Positions 12,930 through 20,574 of a stretch of DNA of 53,575 nucleotides are shown here, in pieces. The stretch spans positions 1 to 53,575 of IMG/VR virus record IMGVR_UViG_3300044497_000088. One strand, given 5' to 3'. The translations under genes and the position numbers were made by a program. Source of the stretch: a virus (lineage: Duplodnaviria; Caudoviricetes). Within the stretch, counting starts at the first letter, position 1. The number at the start of each line of letters is the position of its first letter. Under the pieces are notes generated by a model, which was not told the origin of the DNA, searched no databases, and saw only the letters and a list, made by a program, of their open reading frames with translations.

Positions 12930-13003
12930 AGCAGGACGGAGGAGTCGAACCTCACCTCCCAGGATATTGCAAACTGGGGCTCTGCCGTTTAGCTACGTCC
13001 CGC
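12930..13003 (-). tRNA. tRNA-Cys(GCA)-like gene with atypical 8/4 fold
   Basis: GCGGGACG/CGTCCTGC acceptor stem; TAGCT..GG..AGC D arm; GAGG-TTCGACT-CCTC T arm; loop TTGCAAT; discriminator T. Confidence 0.7.
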
Positions 13004-17295: not shown

Positions 17296-17345
17296 GTCTG
17301 GTCGTCCTGTGCCATGTGACTGTCGAGAAGTATCGAAGAGTTGGC

Positions 17346-17374
17346 ATTATACACCGCAGGACCTCCGGCGTAAA
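17346..17374 (-). promoter_or_regulatory. Leftward sigma70-type promoter of the replication operon
   Basis: TTTACG-N17-TATAAT on the minus strand. Confidence 0.75.
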
Positions 17375-17511
17375 CGGGGCTAGCGACTCAGGCGCAGATT
17401 TTCGCGACCGGCCGACGCGCAGTATATATAGTAGAAGTCGCATCGGAGGTCGTCTATGCGATCGGGCTAGAATTATTCTCGAAATAATCTCCCAAAAGGC
17501 CGATAATGCCG

Positions 17512-17540
17512 TTCCCGCGGCGAATATACTAGTGTAGAAT
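17512..17540 (+). promoter_or_regulatory. Rightward early promoter
   Basis: TTCCCG-N17-TAGAAT in the divergent intergenic region. Confidence 0.55.
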
Positions 17541-17604
17541 GGACACATCGCACCGAGGATCACTCGGACGCGACTGACGGAAACATGGCACAAAGGAAGA
17601 ACAG

Positions 17605-17874
17605 ATGATCGTATGCGGAAACAGCGTGAACGCGAAGAGCTTCTTCGACGCCGCGGCGGGCTCCCTCGCGCAGCTCTACGGGCGGTGGCTCGACGAGAAG
17701 GATTACGAGGACATCGAGGACTATATGTCCGCCCTCCACGAGAAGGCGATGGCGGCGGGCGTCGCGTTGCAGAACATGACGAAGCGACCGTTCGGCGTCG
17801 TGTTCACTTGCGACGGTCGGACGTACCACATGACGATCAAGAAGAACACGGCTCAATACAAGCGAATAGCGTGA
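17605..17874 (+). CDS. Early hypothetical protein
   Basis: AGGA RBS; stop abuts hammerhead 1. Confidence 0.7.
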   Translation: MIVCGNSVNAKSFFDAAAGSLAQLYGRWLDEKDYEDIEDYMSALHEKAMAAGVALQNMTKRPFGVVFTCDGRTYHMTIKKNTAQYKRIA

Positions 17875-17932
17875 GGTCGAAACGCGCGTTGACTCGCGCG
17901 TCCACGGTTATTTCGGCCGTGCTGACGAGACC
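17875..17932 (+). ncRNA. Type II hammerhead ribozyme 1 (predicted cut after C17902)
   Basis: GGTC-GAAA-CGCGCG[ttgact]CGCGCG-TC-CACGG[loop]CCGTG-CTGACGA-GACC. Confidence 0.92.
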
Positions 17933-17963
17933 ACATGGCGACATGGCACGAAGGAAAGAAAAG

Positions 17964-18263
17964 ATGATGAAATACTTATTAGTCCGAGACCACGCGACCG
18001 AGGACTTCGAGCAACACGACTCGTTGCCCCGAGAGGGAGACGCGGTCTACGCGCTCATCGACGGGACGTGGTGGTACGCCACCGACGACGTCGGGAGCGA
18101 GCGGTTCCTCGTCATCGACTCGCGCGGTGGCTGTCGCACGACGGACCGTCAGGACGATTGCGACTATAACGAAGAGCTCTGCTTCATGTGGGACGAGCCA
18201 AACTACTGCCGTTGCTATGCGCTCGATGAGCCGAGCGTCGTATCGACCGTGGCGGGGCGGTGA
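17964..18263 (+). CDS. Early hypothetical protein (99 aa)
   Basis: AAGGA RBS; lies between hammerheads 1 and 2. Confidence 0.7.
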   Translation: MMKYLLVRDHATEDFEQHDSLPREGDAVYALIDGTWWYATDDVGSERFLVIDSRGGCRTTDRQDDCDYNEELCFMWDEPNYCRCYALDEPSVVSTVAGR

Positions 18264-18320
18264 GGTCGAAACGCGGAGCGATCCGCGTCTGACGGTAATT
18301 CAACCGTCACTGAAGAGACC
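18264..18320 (+). ncRNA. Type II hammerhead ribozyme 2 (predicted cut after C18289)
   Basis: GGTC-GAAA-CGCGGA[gcga]TCCGCG-TC-TGACGGT[loop]ACCGTCA-CTGAAGA-GACC. Confidence 0.92.
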
Positions 18321-18340
18321 AACATTTTGGAGAGACGGAC

Positions 18341-18601
18341 ATGGCGCAGTCACACATCGAGGTGCGGGTCGGAGGGGCGGTTTTCGGGTGCGAGACGGTC
18401 GCGGAGTTGCGACGGGCCCTCGACCTCGCCGAGCAGCTAGGAAAACGGGTCGTGGTCGCGAAGGCCGCGAAGCGCAGCAAGCGGCTGACCGCCGAGGCGG
18501 CGGACGGGCTGACCGAGGCTCAGCGGCTCGCGCGGAACGAGGCCAGCCGCAAGGCGAAGGCCGCCGCGCGGAAGGCGAGCAAGCGGAAGGGGTGCAAGTA
18601 A
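18341..18601 (+). CDS. Basic early hypothetical protein
   Basis: GGAG RBS; Lys/Arg-rich C-terminus. Confidence 0.65.
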   Translation: MAQSHIEVRVGGAVFGCETVAELRRALDLAEQLGKRVVVAKAAKRSKRLTAEAADGLTEAQRLARNEASRKAKAAARKASKRKGCK

Positions 18602-18604
18602 CTC

Positions 18605-18805
18605 ATGGGCAGCTACCGAGACGACGAGGACCTCTACATGGACCGGAAGAAGGAGACGTTGACGATCGAGGTCGAGGTCGACGAGAGCGTCGAAGGGCAA
18701 GCGGCCCTCGACGACATCTCAGCGGCCGTCCACGACTTCGTGAACGACGAGCTCAACGAGGATTTCGGCGAGTCGGCCGCGATCACGATCATCGAGAGCG
18801 AGTAG
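18605..18805 (+). CDS. Small, very acidic early protein (possible DNA mimic or host-protein inhibitor)
   Basis: 66 aa, strongly D/E-rich; stop abuts hammerhead 3. Confidence 0.6.
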   Translation: MGSYRDDEDLYMDRKKETLTIEVEVDESVEGQAALDDISAAVHDFVNDELNEDFGESAAITIIESE

Positions 18806-18875
18806 GCCGAAACGCGGGAGCACACCGTGAGGTGGAGACCCGCGTCCGCGACTAGACGGTCGCGCTGACGAGGCC
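18805..18875 (+). ncRNA. Type II hammerhead ribozyme 3 (predicted cut after C18846)
   Basis: GGCC-GAAA-CGCGGG[...CACC gtga GGTG...]CCCGCG-TC-CGCGAC[loop]GTCGCG-CTGACGA-GGCC. Confidence 0.92.
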
Positions 18876-18913
18876 AGCGAGCACTCACCACACGTAGAGA
18901 GAGAACCGAGACC

Positions 18914-19420
18914 ATGAAGACCATCCCCAACGCGACCGCGCCCGTGAAGGCCCCGCCGGCGAAGGCGGCCGGAGCCGGAGCCGCGAAGAAGGTCAAGAGC
19001 GGCGAGCGCGGACCGACCGTGTTCCACCCCGCGCTCGAGGCCAAGGCCGTCGACGGCGTCCTGAAGCCGACCAAGAAATTGCAGGCGTGGCCGGCAGACT
19101 ACAAGACCACGCAGCACAAGCCGCTGTCGTCGGCGCACTTCGAGGACCCGGCCGTGTACTACAACGGCAAGGCCGACCGCCTCCAGCGAGTGGTCGACAA
19201 GCTGCGGCAGGACGCGCTCCAGGCCAAGACGCTCGGCGGCGTCAAGGAGAAGGGCACCGCGAAGAAGATGCTCCAGCTCCAGAAGCGGCTCGACGACCTC
19301 AAGACGGAGCTGTCCGGCAAGGGCGTCGACGTCGAGGCCATGCTCAAGCTGCTCGCGGCCAAGCAGGTCGAGGCGGCCGCACCGGCGGCGAGCGCGCTGC
19401 CAGCCGCGTCGCAGGCGTAG
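18914..19420 (+). CDS. Lys/Ala-rich early protein with coiled coil
   Basis: Clean ORF with strongly biased codon usage. Confidence 0.7.
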   Translation: MKTIPNATAPVKAPPAKAAGAGAAKKVKSGERGPTVFHPALEAKAVDGVLKPTKKLQAWPADYKTTQHKPLSSAHFEDPAVYYNGKADRLQRVVDKLRQDALQAKTLGGVKEKGTAKKMLQLQKRLDDLKTELSGKGVDVEAMLKLLAAKQVEAAAPAASALPAASQA

Positions 19421-19470
19421 ACCCTCTGACGAGACGAGGTCGAAACCGCGGCGGGAGACCGCCGCGAGAG
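19421..19470 (+). ncRNA. Incomplete hammerhead core lacking a cis cleavage triplet
   Basis: CTGACGA-GAC[gag]GTC-GAAA-C-CGCGGCGG[gaga]CCGCCGCG, with no NUH or stem I partner after stem III. Confidence 0.5.
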
Positions 19471-19485
19471 CATGCCGAACGCCTA

Positions 19486-19539
19486 GGTCGAAACCGGGGA
19501 CGGCCCCGGTCTGGCGGTAGGTCCGCCACTGACGAGACC
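19486..19539 (+). ncRNA. Type II hammerhead ribozyme 4 (predicted cut after C19511)
   Basis: GGTC-GAAA-CCGGGG[acgg]CCCCGG-TC-TGGCGG[taggt]CCGCCA-CTGACGA-GACC. Confidence 0.92.
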
Positions 19540-19561
19540 ACATGGCACGAGGAGAACGACG

Positions 19562-19774
19562 ATGAAGATCAAGAGGACGCGGGTGCGCATCACGCTGGAG
19601 ACGAGGCGGCAGGCGGCCGACCTGGAGGTCGCGCTGACAGAGGCGGGCTTCGAGACGAACGACGACTGCGACGCGAGCGAGGTGATGATGGACCTCGACC
19701 CCACCGAGGGCAAGACGCCGGGCGACCAGCTCGCGGAATTGGCGCGCGCCCTCGACGAGGCCCGGGTGTCCTGA
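19562..19774 (+). CDS. Small acidic early protein
   Basis: GAGGAG RBS after hammerhead 4. Confidence 0.65.
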   Translation: MKIKRTRVRITLETRRQAADLEVALTEAGFETNDDCDASEVMMDLDPTEGKTPGDQLAELARALDEARVS

Positions 19775-19812
19775 TACCGGGGAGAGAGGCACGACCGTCC
19801 CAGCCCGTCTGA

Positions 19813-19873
19813 CGCGAAAATCCGCGCACGGGCCGATCGCCTGGCTCGCGTATGGGGCGAGCCGCGGTATAAT
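19813..19873 (+). promoter_or_regulatory. Promoter with upstream CGCGAAAATCCGCGC box
   Basis: TATAAT at 19868-19873; box and spacing shared with the leftward promoter. Confidence 0.6.
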
Positions 19874-19918
19874 GCACACGCGTGAACGATTGACACATGG
19901 CACATAGGGAGACGACGA

Positions 19919-20164
19919 ATGTATCTACAAGCAGATTGGACAAAGCGGTATCAATCCGCGAGAGCTGCGGAGAAAGACCTCAAAGGCCTCAAGTTGCCGT
20001 ACCCACAATTCGAGGGCTGGATCGAGACTGACACAGACACGCTGCTAGTCAGTCCTCATCAGACGGCGTACATCATCCAATGCTGGAACACCCCTGAGGC
20101 GCGGAAGACGATCGCCGCTTACCTTGGCTTGCCAGTCTATCGCCAGGAAGGCGGTGCCGTATGA
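19919..20164 (+). CDS. Hypothetical protein
   Basis: GGGAG RBS; first gene after the promoter. Confidence 0.6.
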   Translation: MYLQADWTKRYQSARAAEKDLKGLKLPYPQFEGWIETDTDTLLVSPHQTAYIIQCWNTPEARKTIAAYLGLPVYRQEGGAV

Positions 20165-20574
20165 CAGTGGGAGACAGGGCCGCGAAGCGCAGGGAGCTGC
20201 TCGCGGCGATCGAGGACTCGGTCCAACGGAAGCGCGCGATCGCCAGCGACGGCGAGAACCCGGAGCGGACGGCCGAGCGCGTCGCGCAGTACCGCGAGCA
20301 AGCGGCCCGGATGACGCGGCAGGCCGACGCCATGGAGGCCAACGCGGCCGACTGGCAGTCGCGCTACCGTCGCGAGGACGAGGAGACCACGCGGCTGCGC
20401 GCCGAGCTGGCCGCCCTCCAGAAGCAAGCGACGTTCGACGGGCTGTCCGCAGCTCTGGCCGCGTTCGCGCAGGCCTCGCCGGAGGAGCTGGACGCGCTCG
20501 TCGAGTCGCGGCCGGACCTCGCGCCGCTGGTCGCGGCCATGACTGCCAAGCAGGACGAGGGGAGGGCGGGATGA
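20161..20574 (+). CDS. Coiled-coil hypothetical protein
   Basis: ATGA-coupled at both ends. Confidence 0.6.
   Translation: MTVGDRAAKRRELLAAIEDSVQRKRAIASDGENPERTAERVAQYREQAARMTRQADAMEANAADWQSRYRREDEETTRLRAELAALQKQATFDGLSAALAAFAQASPEELDALVESRPDLAPLVAAMTAKQDEGRAG

What the first reader, a model, noticed from the sequence alone, without database searches (positions are those of the whole stretch)
17903..19511. Ribozyme-flanked gene units could circularise or act as exchangeable cassettes
Seen: each released unit begins with [stem I-CTGANGA-GACC/GGCC] and ends with [GGTC/GGCC-GAAA-stem III-TC]. Stem II is nearly invariant while the other stems vary. Joining a unit's own ends therefore rebuilds a complete hybrid hammerhead: perfect stem II for unit 1, a G-U pair for unit 3, one mismatch for unit 2. 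Known: 5'-OH and cyclic phosphate ends are substrates for RtcB and for hammerhead back-ligation. Inferred: the phage may make circular or re-ordered mRNAs, and the conserved cores may also serve as DNA recombination points that swap early-gene cassettes.
Basis: inference. Interest (0 to 1): 0.75.

Follow-up and report, generated by a model that had tools for sequence, protein, structure and literature searches.

The report
Phage hammerhead ribozyme array between genes
Four self-cutting hammerhead RNAs sit between the small early genes of an uncultivated phage and most likely chop one long transcript into separate hairpin-capped messages, a layout known since 2011; nothing here supports circular messages, though related phages do swap genes next to these ribozymes.

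Summary
The + strand holds four complete type II hammerheads (open 4-bp stem II) at 17875-17932, 18264-18320, 18805-18875 and 19486-19539. They would cut after 17902, 18289, 18846 and 19511, and each starts at the stop codon of the gene before it.

This layout is already published (Perreault 2011). That paper also raised circular or spliced products and reported finding none. This scan has met the same layout on other DNA.

The circle idea gains nothing here. No RNA run holds the locus. Where stem II differs between neighbouring ribozymes, here and in other phage arrays, it covaries within each contiguous ribozyme and not across unit ends. End-pairing beyond stem II is not enriched.

The DNA-cassette idea gets partial support:
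- The one relative keeps ribozymes at matching positions around unrelated genes.
- Two other phages about 96% identical in their flanks share only the ribozyme between unrelated DNA.
- Homology breakpoints are commoner at ribozyme-bearing gene ends, although this is confounded by the region being hypervariable anyway.

Most likely function: co-transcriptional processing into insulated, hairpin-capped linear mRNAs.

The parts
17479..17507 (+). Promoter-like site (TCGAAA-17-GATAAT) in the divergent region between the minus-strand helicase operon and the plus-strand early operon
   Evidence: Consensus scan: 2 sites found against 0.3 expected. This is a consensus match only.
17569..17604 (+). Leader of the first gene. 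It is a degenerate copy of the ribozyme 3' core plus the standard leader (CTGACGGAAACATGGCACAAAGGAAGA).
   Evidence: Direct repeats D5 and D6; sequence.
17605..17874 (+). Gene 0 (89 aa, no family). Its TGA stop abuts HH1.
   Evidence: ORF and GC3 0.88. No PHROG or Pfam hit; one weak PADLOC match (DrmC, E 0.0053).
17875..17932 (+). HH1, type II hammerhead; predicted cut after 17902
   Evidence: covariance model E 2.4e-13.
17964..18263 (+). Gene 1 (99 aa, no family), the only gene of unit 1 (17903-18289). Its TGA stop abuts HH2.
   Evidence: no family hit.
18264..18320 (+). HH2, type II hammerhead; predicted cut after 18289
   Evidence: covariance model E 1.2e-14. In a 1-2% divergent strain, the three listed changes inside HH2 all fall in loop I.
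18341..18601 (+). Gene 2a (86 aa, basic C-terminus), first gene of unit 2 (18290-18846). Conserved in relative G001.
18605..18805 (+). Gene 2b (66 aa), second gene of unit 2. Absent from G001. Its TAG stop overlaps the first base of HH3.
   Evidence: no relative found in viral contigs.
18805..18875 (+). HH3, type II hammerhead with stem II GGCC/GGCC and a 20-nt loop III; predicted cut after 18846
   Evidence: covariance model E 5.8e-13.
18914..19420 (+). Gene 3 (168 aa, no family), the gene of unit 3 (18847-19511). Conserved in G001 and, at 30-46% identity, in six metagenome loci that carry no hammerheads.
19423..19470 (+). Hammerhead-derived debris: CTGACGAGAC-GA-GGTCGAAAC plus a stem-III-like hairpin. 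It lacks U16.1, C17 and stem I and is not a working ribozyme.
   Evidence: reading; repeats D12 and D17; weak model hit E 0.04.
19486..19539 (+). HH4, type II hammerhead; predicted cut after 19511
   Evidence: covariance model E 1.3e-17; Rfam RF02276 24.7 bits, below its cut-off of 37.
19562..19774 (+). Gene 4 (70 aa, no family), the first gene after the last ribozyme

Best explanation
The four elements are working type II hammerhead ribozymes. They punctuate one early polycistronic transcript that probably starts near 17510-17550 and runs at least to 19774.

Each ribozyme folds as soon as it is made and cuts itself after C17. Because stem II is an open helix of only 4 bp, the two products fall apart, so the cut is effectively irreversible.

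The type II permutation leaves each upstream message ending, 27-41 nt after its stop codon, in the stem III hairpin with a 2',3'-cyclic phosphate. Each downstream message begins with a 5'-OH on the stem I hairpin, followed by a short leader and ribosome-binding site.

The result is five separate linear mRNAs. Their ends are hairpin-capped and chemically unusual. Their stability and translation no longer depend on neighbouring genes, so the ribozymes act as natural insulators.

Shown: the sequence anatomy, the covariation, the positions relative to genes, and conservation in a relative. Inferred: cleavage in vivo (by analogy with tested type II arrays), the stabilising role of the ends, and the insulating role.
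For: - All core residues are canonical in all four copies: CUGANGA, GAAA, A15.1-U16.1, C17 and G10.1-C11.1.
- Stems I and III differ between copies with compensating changes.
- A model built from other phages' ribozymes scores them at E 1e-13 to 1e-17.
- They occur on the coding strand only and in intergenic positions only.
- No terminator-like site lies on the + strand across the array, and a promoter-like site lies upstream.
- G001, the relative with 65% helicase identity, has three hammerheads at matching positions of a syntenic operon.
- A 1-2% divergent strain is collinear through the array. Its listed changes inside HH2 all lie in loop I (12 differences were not shown).
- Family-wide, the upstream gene's stop codon ends within -4 to +2 nt of the ribozyme's first base in 161 of 228 hammerheads. 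Stem II is 3 or 4 bp in 224 of 235. This fits a compact processing signal with fast product release.
- Published tests: three clustered hammerhead arrangements (C. scindens, A. caulinodans, A. tumefaciens) cleave in vitro, and the Agrobacterium triple also cleaves when transcribed in E. coli (Perreault 2011, PMC3088659, passages). Three type II hammerheads cleave in Desulfovibrio vulgaris (Olzog 2021, PMC8782182, abstract and passages). Reviews name polycistronic processing as the suggested role (PMC6765202, passages).
Against: - No RNA data exist for this phage, so cleavage is untested.
- Rfam's Hammerhead_II model misses all four at its own cut-off. HH4 scores 24.7 against 37 bits, and only in a 96-base search.
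- The loop I / 3'-tail pseudoknot that most published type II examples have is not evident here: best runs are 2-4 pairs, and those lie distant from stem II. The ribozymes may therefore be slow at cellular Mg2+.
- Nearest-neighbour folding, which ignores tertiary contacts, gives cis stem II only P 0.008 for HH1 and HH2, 0.11 for HH4 and 0.55 for HH3 in a +/-150-nt context.
- The stabilising effect of 5'-OH and cyclic-phosphate hairpin ends is recalled general knowledge of bacterial RNA decay. It was not tested here.
Confidence: 0.75

Rival explanations
1. After double cleavage, each unit's ends pair through stem II and are joined into circular, or shuffled, mRNAs. The joining would be done by the hammerhead's reverse reaction or by a host RtcB-type ligase.
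For: - The geometry is right. The ends carry complementary halves of a hammerhead, and stem II would be perfect for unit 1 and carry a G·U for unit 3.
- Nearest-neighbour folding predicts that unit 1's ends pair with P about 0.4.
- Hammerhead-flanked units are circularised by tRNA ligases in plant and animal retrozymes (PMC4918200 and PMC7229834, abstracts in the listings).
Against: - Unit 2's ends have an A·C mismatch in a 4-bp helix. HH3's stem II covaried in cis, not towards its unit partners.
- Across arrays, 16 of 46 unit-end hybrids keep 3 or more pairs when neighbours differ, against 74 of 92 cis stems.
- Extended end-pairing is not enriched: 2 of 51 against a 2.5% control.
- Folding gives P about 1e-4 for unit 2 and 0.002 for unit 3.
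- A 4-bp open helix favours product release over ligation.
- Perreault 2011 looked for circular or spliced products and found none (data not shown).
- A full-text search for hammerhead, RtcB, circular RNA, bacterial and phage returned 6 papers. By title and abstract, none reports phage circular mRNAs.
Confidence: 0.06
2. This reading is additional to the RNA role and does not exclude it. The ribozyme DNA and the standard leader behind it act as short conserved linkers at which homologous recombination swaps, adds or removes early-gene cassettes, as the PeSL promoter/stem-loop motifs do in T4-type phages.
For: - Window versus G001: the hammerheads are the only DNA-level matches in the first two units. 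The genes there are unrelated (89 and 99 aa against 48 and 52 aa; no tblastx hit for the first two units; blastp of gene 0 against gene A found none). Gene 2b is present or absent directly next to HH3.
- L040 and L067, about 96% identical in their flanks, share an 80-nt island consisting of the ribozyme, 22 nt upstream and a few nt downstream, between unrelated DNA on both sides.
- The related loci L009, L038, L027 and L051 carry 1, 1, 2 and 4 hammerheads between conserved flanks. One homology block ends inside a ribozyme.
- Breakpoints lie within 40 nt of a ribozyme edge 58 times of 410, against 16 expected if uniform.
- Breakpoints occur at 27 of 61 ribozyme-bearing gene ends against 101 of 490 others, odds ratio 3.1.
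- Within the window, exact tracts are shared between different ribozymes: GTGAGGTCGAAACGCG in HH1 and HH2, and CTGACGAGACCACATGGC in HH1 and HH4. Hammerhead debris lies at 19423-19470.
Against: - Ribozymes sit in hypervariable early regions, where gene turnover is high anyway, so the enrichment may reflect the region and not the ribozyme.
- Because ribozymes start at stop codons, any whole-gene indel upstream of one ends at its edge.
- The counts come from 70 ordered pairs and 20 query loci in a few related clusters. They use crude gene calls and are not independent.
- The ribozyme may simply be retained by selection while its neighbours diverge.
- Only one relative of this phage was found.
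- Gene 3 homologues occur without hammerheads.
Confidence: 0.3
3. The elements are slow, conditional or inactive. They would act mainly as intergenic hairpins or as regulated switches, for example cutting only when the terminating ribosome clears stem II.
For: - No pseudoknot or loop-loop partner was found.
- Rfam score is below the cut-off.
- The stop codon abuts stem II, so a terminating ribosome would cover its 5' strand (the ribosome footprint is recalled knowledge).
- Perreault 2011 raises regulated cleavage for phage hammerheads.
Against: The cores are perfect in all four copies and in the relative, although the flanking genes have turned over. This argues for selection on catalysis and not only on hairpins. 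The one degenerate copy in the window (19423-19470) shows what decay looks like.
Confidence: 0.1

Closest known systems
Clustered type II hammerhead ribozymes flanking single genes or short gene blocks in prophages and phages (Perreault et al. 2011, PMC3088659; Rfam RF02276 Hammerhead_II)
   Same: Same core, same permutation (stems I and III closed, short open stem II), same position between small non-conserved phage genes on the coding strand, and the same multi-copy arrangement. The paper also raises circular or spliced products.
   Different: These copies score below Rfam's cut-off (24.7 against 37 bits). They show no loop I / 3'-tail pseudoknot. They come from an uncultivated 53.6-kb sediment phage with no close relative in the phage record collection.
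Retrozymes and viroid-like circular RNAs with hammerheads (Cervera and de la Pena 2016, PMC4918200; 2020, PMC7229834; abstracts seen)
   Same: A unit flanked by two hammerheads is released with 5'-OH and 2',3'-cP ends that together rebuild a hammerhead.
   Different: Those use type I or III ribozymes, are non-coding, and are ligated by tRNA ligases into detected circles. As recalled, not read in these papers, they fold so that their ends meet. Here the ribozymes are type II, the units are protein-coding mRNAs, end-pairing is not conserved, and no circle has been seen.
PeSL promoter/stem-loop motifs that mediate modular shuffling in T4-type phages (Arbiol et al. 2010, PMC2839356; Comeau et al. 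2014, PMC4122927; titles and abstracts seen)
   Same: Short conserved intergenic regulatory repeats bracket variable ORFan genes in hyperplastic early regions. Insertions, deletions and replacements between close relatives end at them.
   Different: PeSLs are promoter-terminator motifs, not ribozymes. A causal role in recombination is proposed there from close phage pairs. Here it rests on one relative and a small, confounded survey.
RiboJ-type synthetic ribozyme insulators (Clifton et al. 2018, PMC6206723, abstract seen; the original 2012 description is recalled, not read)
   Same: A self-cleaving hammerhead placed before a gene removes upstream RNA context and leaves a hairpin-led standard 5' end.
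   Different: RiboJ is an engineered type III-derived part. The phage elements are natural type II, and they also leave a hairpin on the upstream product.

Membership tests
Hammerhead ribozyme, type II (Rfam RF02276, clan CL00010) | Conserved catalytic core: C3-U4-G5-A6-N7-G8-A9 and G12-A13-A14 | tested here: met
   CTGACGA, CTGAAGA, CTGACGA and CTGACGA, with GAAA, in all four copies.
Hammerhead ribozyme, type II (Rfam RF02276, clan CL00010) | A15.1-U16.1 pair, cleavage-site H17 that is not G, and G10.1-C11.1 closing stem II | tested here: met
   All four copies have A...T then C17, and G after CTGANGA pairs with C before GAAA.
Hammerhead ribozyme, type II (Rfam RF02276, clan CL00010) | Three helices around the core, with stems I and III closed by loops and stem II open (this defines type II) | tested here: met
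   Stem III 7 bp, stem I 6-7 bp, stem II 4 bp open. The model alignment agrees.
Hammerhead ribozyme, type II (Rfam RF02276, clan CL00010) | Helices supported by compensatory change | tested here: met
   The four copies and the three in G001 differ in stems I and III yet stay paired. In the 49-sequence class alignment, 12 of 16 pairs change on both sides, but that set was selected for pairing.
Hammerhead ribozyme, type II (Rfam RF02276, clan CL00010) | Score at or above Rfam's gathering threshold (37 bits) | tested here: not met
   No hit in the whole-window or 3.5-kb searches. HH4 reaches 24.7 bits in a 96-base search. This is a sensitivity limit of the seed model. It lowers formal Rfam membership but not the structural assignment.
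Hammerhead ribozyme, type II (Rfam RF02276, clan CL00010) | Pseudoknot between loop I and the tail just 3' of stem II (present in most published type II examples; not obligatory) | tested here: not met
   Best runs in the window's four copies are 2-4 pairs, and those are distant from stem II. Across the sample, 18% have 4 or more Watson-Crick pairs in the first 12 nt, against 6% for shuffled partners. G001's third hammerhead does have it.
Hammerhead ribozyme, type II (Rfam RF02276, clan CL00010) | Self-cleavage giving 5'-OH and 2',3'-cyclic phosphate ends | not testable with these tools
   No RNA run holds the locus.
Hammerhead-flanked circular RNA elements (retrozyme or viroid-like) | Circular RNA form detected (junction reads, RNase R resistance) | not testable with these tools
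   No RNA holder is listed. Only DNA contigs could be laid.
Hammerhead-flanked circular RNA elements (retrozyme or viroid-like) | Unit ends held together by conserved pairing so that a ligase or the ribozyme can join them | tested here: not met
   Unit 2 has a mismatch. Predicted end-pairing is P 0.4, 1e-4 and 0.002 for units 1-3. Unit-end compatibility is lost in 30 of 46 neighbour pairs with differing stem II. Extended pairing is not enriched.
Recombination-linker motifs of phage hyperplastic regions (PeSL-like) | Repeated conserved intergenic motif bracketing variable genes | tested here: met
   Four copies bracket ORFan genes. Shared exact tracts D4 and D11.
Recombination-linker motifs of phage hyperplastic regions (PeSL-like) | Gene gain, loss or replacement between close relatives ends at the motif more often than at other boundaries | tested here: inconclusive
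   27 of 61 against 101 of 490, with examples. The comparison is confounded by region, non-independent pairs and crude gene calls, and only one relative of this phage is available.

The most novel reading that the evidence does not exclude
At least unit 1 (17903-18289) is closed into a circular, translatable mRNA by a host RtcB-type ligase or by the hammerhead's reverse reaction. Its ends give a perfect stem II and have a predicted pairing probability of about 0.4. This would give a DNA phage circular early messages. The same ribozyme-plus-leader modules would then double as the DNA joints at which cassettes are exchanged.
Probability: 0.06. Interest if true: 0.8.

Novelty: new member of a known kind. 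Interest (0 to 1): 0.3.

Why it matters
The biological role of the many hammerheads in phage genomes is still called an open question (2017 and 2019 reviews). This window adds a clean, complete example in a full-length phage genome. Three small generalisations from about 230 phage hammerheads could guide experiments:
- The ribozyme starts at the upstream stop codon.
- Stem II is held at 3-4 bp.
- Stem II covaries in cis and not across units.

These favour irreversible processing into insulated linear mRNAs over ligation. They also suggest why such units are easy to exchange. If the link to gene turnover is real, ribozymes would be both the RNA punctuation and the DNA seams of phage accessory-gene regions. 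As it stands, the finding is a further instance of a layout known since 2011.

Tried and rejected
- Rfam at gathering and at E<=10 over 3.5 kb gave no hammerhead hit. Only a 96-base search showed RF02276, below its threshold.
- RNA evidence: no RNA holder is listed for window:17300-20200, so junction reads could not be sought. The single read-laying run used DNA contigs of four runs. It showed only a collinear 1-2% variant, plus low-depth joints with sides under 30 letters that I do not trust.
- blastn of 17300-20200 against the phage record collection found no match.
- Relatives: the helicase query found one viral contig. The gene 3 alignment found that same contig again and six metagenome loci without hammerheads. 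Gene 1 found one weak 22-residue match without hammerheads. Gene 2b found none.
- MAFFT alignments of the window's ribozymes were misregistered. I built the model from a gap-free 52-nt class instead.
- Protein families for the unit genes: no PHROG or Pfam hit, and only weak PADLOC matches at E 0.001-0.005 that I disregard. The ESM Atlas gave nothing for gene 3. Genes 2a and 4 share only an 11-residue match, E 0.033.
- A first breakpoint test by intergenic interval classified only 12 boundaries as ribozyme-bearing and was discarded for the fixed-window test.
- The 3-bp extension of unit 1's end-pairing, seen in both the window and G001, is equally explained by cis pairing in HH1 and by the similar 5' flanks of HH1 and HH2. 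It is not enriched family-wide.
- The G001 record ends inside its gene 3 homologue, so the rest of its array is unknown.
Full report
**Context**

The window is a complete 53,575-base virus record with direct terminal repeats and 66% G+C.
- Minus-strand genes up to 17295 include DNA polymerase, primase and helicase.
- Plus-strand genes from 17605 onward include terminase and major head protein.
- The finding lies at the start of the plus-strand block, just after the divergent promoter region. A promoter-like site sits at 17479-17507, and no terminator-like site lies on the + strand through 20900.

**Observation**

Direct reading and a descriptor script show four elements with the exact order of a type II hammerhead. 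The order is a 4-nt strand, GAAA, a stem III hairpin closed by A15.1-U16.1, C17, a stem I hairpin, CUGANGA, and the complementary 4-nt strand.

| Ribozyme | Coordinates | Cut after |
|---|---|---|
| HH1 | 17875-17932 | 17902 |
| HH2 | 18264-18320 | 18289 |
| HH3 | 18805-18875 | 18846 |
| HH4 | 19486-19539 | 19511 |

- A pattern search of the whole record gives 4 forward matches, none on the reverse strand and none for the backwards control.
- A covariance model built only from 49 hammerheads of other phages finds these four at E 1.3e-17 to 5.8e-13. It also finds three in the relative L130. It finds nothing else convincing in the window.
- Rfam misses the ribozymes in whole-window and 3.5-kb searches. 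In a 96-base search, Hammerhead_II reaches 24.7 bits on HH4, under its cut-off of 37.

**Anatomy around the ribozymes**

- Each ribozyme begins at the stop codon of the gene before it: TGA then GGTC for HH1 and HH2, and TAG overlapping the first G for HH3.
- The genes are small ORFans of 89, 99, 86 plus 66, 168 and 70 aa. None has a PHROG or Pfam family.
- The stretch behind HH1 and HH4 is identical for 18 nt (CTGACGAGACCACATGGC).
- The leader ACATGGCAC...AGGA recurs before gene 0 and again near 19895 behind a second promoter-like TATAAT.
- Between gene 3 and HH4 lies hammerhead debris that cannot fold into a ribozyme.

**What is known**

Perreault et al. 2011 (PMC3088659; passages read):
- They described type II hammerheads as common in bacteria.
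- They found clusters flanking single genes or short blocks in prophages, with non-constant gene identities.
- They proposed processing of long phage transcripts.
- They stated that successive cleavage and ligation could give spliced or circular products, but that neither was detected (data not shown).

Later papers:
- Reviews from 2017 and 2019 still call the role open and name polycistronic processing as the suggestion.
- Three type II hammerheads cleave in vivo in Desulfovibrio vulgaris.

This scan has noted the same layout on other phage DNA, with the same outcome.

**Test of the circle idea**

No RNA run holds the locus, so I tested what selection has preserved.

- In the window, HH3, the one ribozyme with a different stem II, changed both strands (GGCC/GGCC). 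This keeps its own helix and breaks unit 2's end-pairing.
- A viral-contig scan with stem II left free shows many different 3-4-bp stems. GGTC/GACC is 9 of 142.
- Stem II is 4 bp in 177, 3 bp in 47, 5 bp in 10 and 6 bp in 1 of 235 distinct ribozymes.
- I then took candidates found without any stem II requirement (247). Of these, 228 have 3 or more contiguous cis pairs. Among 86 neighbouring pairs, 40 share stem II. Among the 46 that differ, 74 of 92 ribozymes keep their cis stem, but only 16 of 46 unit-end hybrids keep 3 or more pairs.
- Pairing beyond the conserved A·A or A·G mismatch that flanks stem II is not enriched. It is seen in cis in 1.1% of cases and at unit ends in 2 of 51, against 2.5% for shuffled partners.
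- Nearest-neighbour folding predicts end-pairing for unit 1 (P about 0.4) but not for unit 2 (about 1e-4) or unit 3 (0.002). The same model also underrates the cis ribozymes, so it is weak evidence either way.

Together these results say that the contiguous ribozyme is what is maintained. Unit-end compatibility is a by-product of neighbour similarity. A short open helix suits product release.

**Test of the cassette idea**

*The one relative, G001*
- G001 has 65% helicase identity to the window. Its contig ends inside the array.
- It has a syntenic early operon with three hammerheads.
- Genes 2a and 3 are conserved. Genes in the first two units are unrelated to the window's. Gene 2b is missing directly next to the third ribozyme.
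- In that stretch the ribozymes are the only DNA-level matches.

*Other phages*
- L040 and L067, about 96% identical in their flanks, share only the ribozyme and about 22 nt before it between unrelated DNA.
- The related loci L009, L038, L027 and L051 carry 1, 1, 2 and 4 ribozymes between conserved flanks.

*Breakpoint counts*
- Over 70 ordered related pairs, 58 of 410 homology breakpoints lie within 40 nt of a ribozyme edge, against 16 expected if uniform.
- 27 of 61 ribozyme-bearing gene ends have a breakpoint, against 101 of 490 other same-strand gene ends.

*Caveats*
- There are few clusters, the pairs are not independent, and the gene calls are crude.
- Above all, ribozymes sit where turnover is high anyway.
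- A 1-2% divergent strain in DNA contigs is collinear through the array.

**Mechanism**

The best-supported reading is co-transcriptional self-cleavage of one early transcript into five linear mRNAs.
- The type II permutation gives the upstream product a 3' stem III hairpin 27-41 nt after its stop.
- It gives the downstream product a 5' stem I hairpin ahead of a standard leader.
- Family-wide, the stop codon ends within -4 to +2 nt of the ribozyme in 161 of 228 cases, and an A precedes stem II in 83%.
- That hairpin-capped 5'-OH and cyclic-phosphate ends resist bacterial decay enzymes is recalled knowledge and was not tested.
- Such insulation would also make cassettes easy to exchange, which links the RNA role to the mosaic pattern. 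This link is inference.

**Verdict**

The feature is real and clear-cut, and it is a new member of a known kind. The recombination-point inference gains partial, confounded support.

Noticed in passing
window 19423-19470: Hammerhead-derived debris between gene 3 and HH4. A 3' core piece (CCTCTGACGAGAC, 92% like HH4's) is followed after 2 nt by GGTCGAAAC and a strong hairpin, but without U16.1, C17 or stem I. It looks like the scar of a past rearrangement between ribozyme copies.
   Followed up: partly
window 17583-17598, 17941-17956, 19540-19555, 19895-19910: A standard leader (ACATGGCAC, then a purine-rich ribosome-binding site) is used four times. Two copies follow a ribozyme (HH1, HH4) and two follow promoter-like sites. 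The 32-nt blocks 17569-17600 and 19881-19912 are 75% alike. Messages made by transcription start and by ribozyme cutting therefore get similar 5' leaders.
   Followed up: partly
228 hammerheads in loci L005-L264 and the window: In 161 of 228 phage type II hammerheads, the upstream ORF's stop codon ends within -4 to +2 nt of the first base of stem II. The base before stem II is A in 83%, and the base after it is A or G in 85%. The words 'stop codon' do not occur in the main text of Perreault 2011. Supplements were not checked.
   Followed up: partly
window 17875-19539: Rfam's Hammerhead_II model at its gathering score misses all four ribozymes. Routine annotation would leave this array unmarked. 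A 52-nt, pseudoknot-less subclass with loop I U-N-N-N-G is abundant in viral contigs (50 of 235 sampled).
   Followed up: partly
window 18073, 18239, 18661 (run X10 contigs): A 1-2% divergent strain carries in-frame indels inside unit genes: +9 nt, -9 nt and +27 nt. It also has three changes in loop I of HH2 (18298, 18302, 18303) that make it resemble the loops of HH1 and of G001.
   Followed up: no
window 12931-13002 (- strand): A tRNA gene (Rfam tRNA, 35.1 bits) lies between the primase gene and the next replication-module gene.
   Followed up: no
L130 335-391 (- strand): G001's third hammerhead has a 3-bp stem II (GCC/GGC). Unlike the window's copies, it has a 4-5-bp pseudoknot between loop I (UACCU) and the tail right after stem II (AGGUA).
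   Followed up: partly
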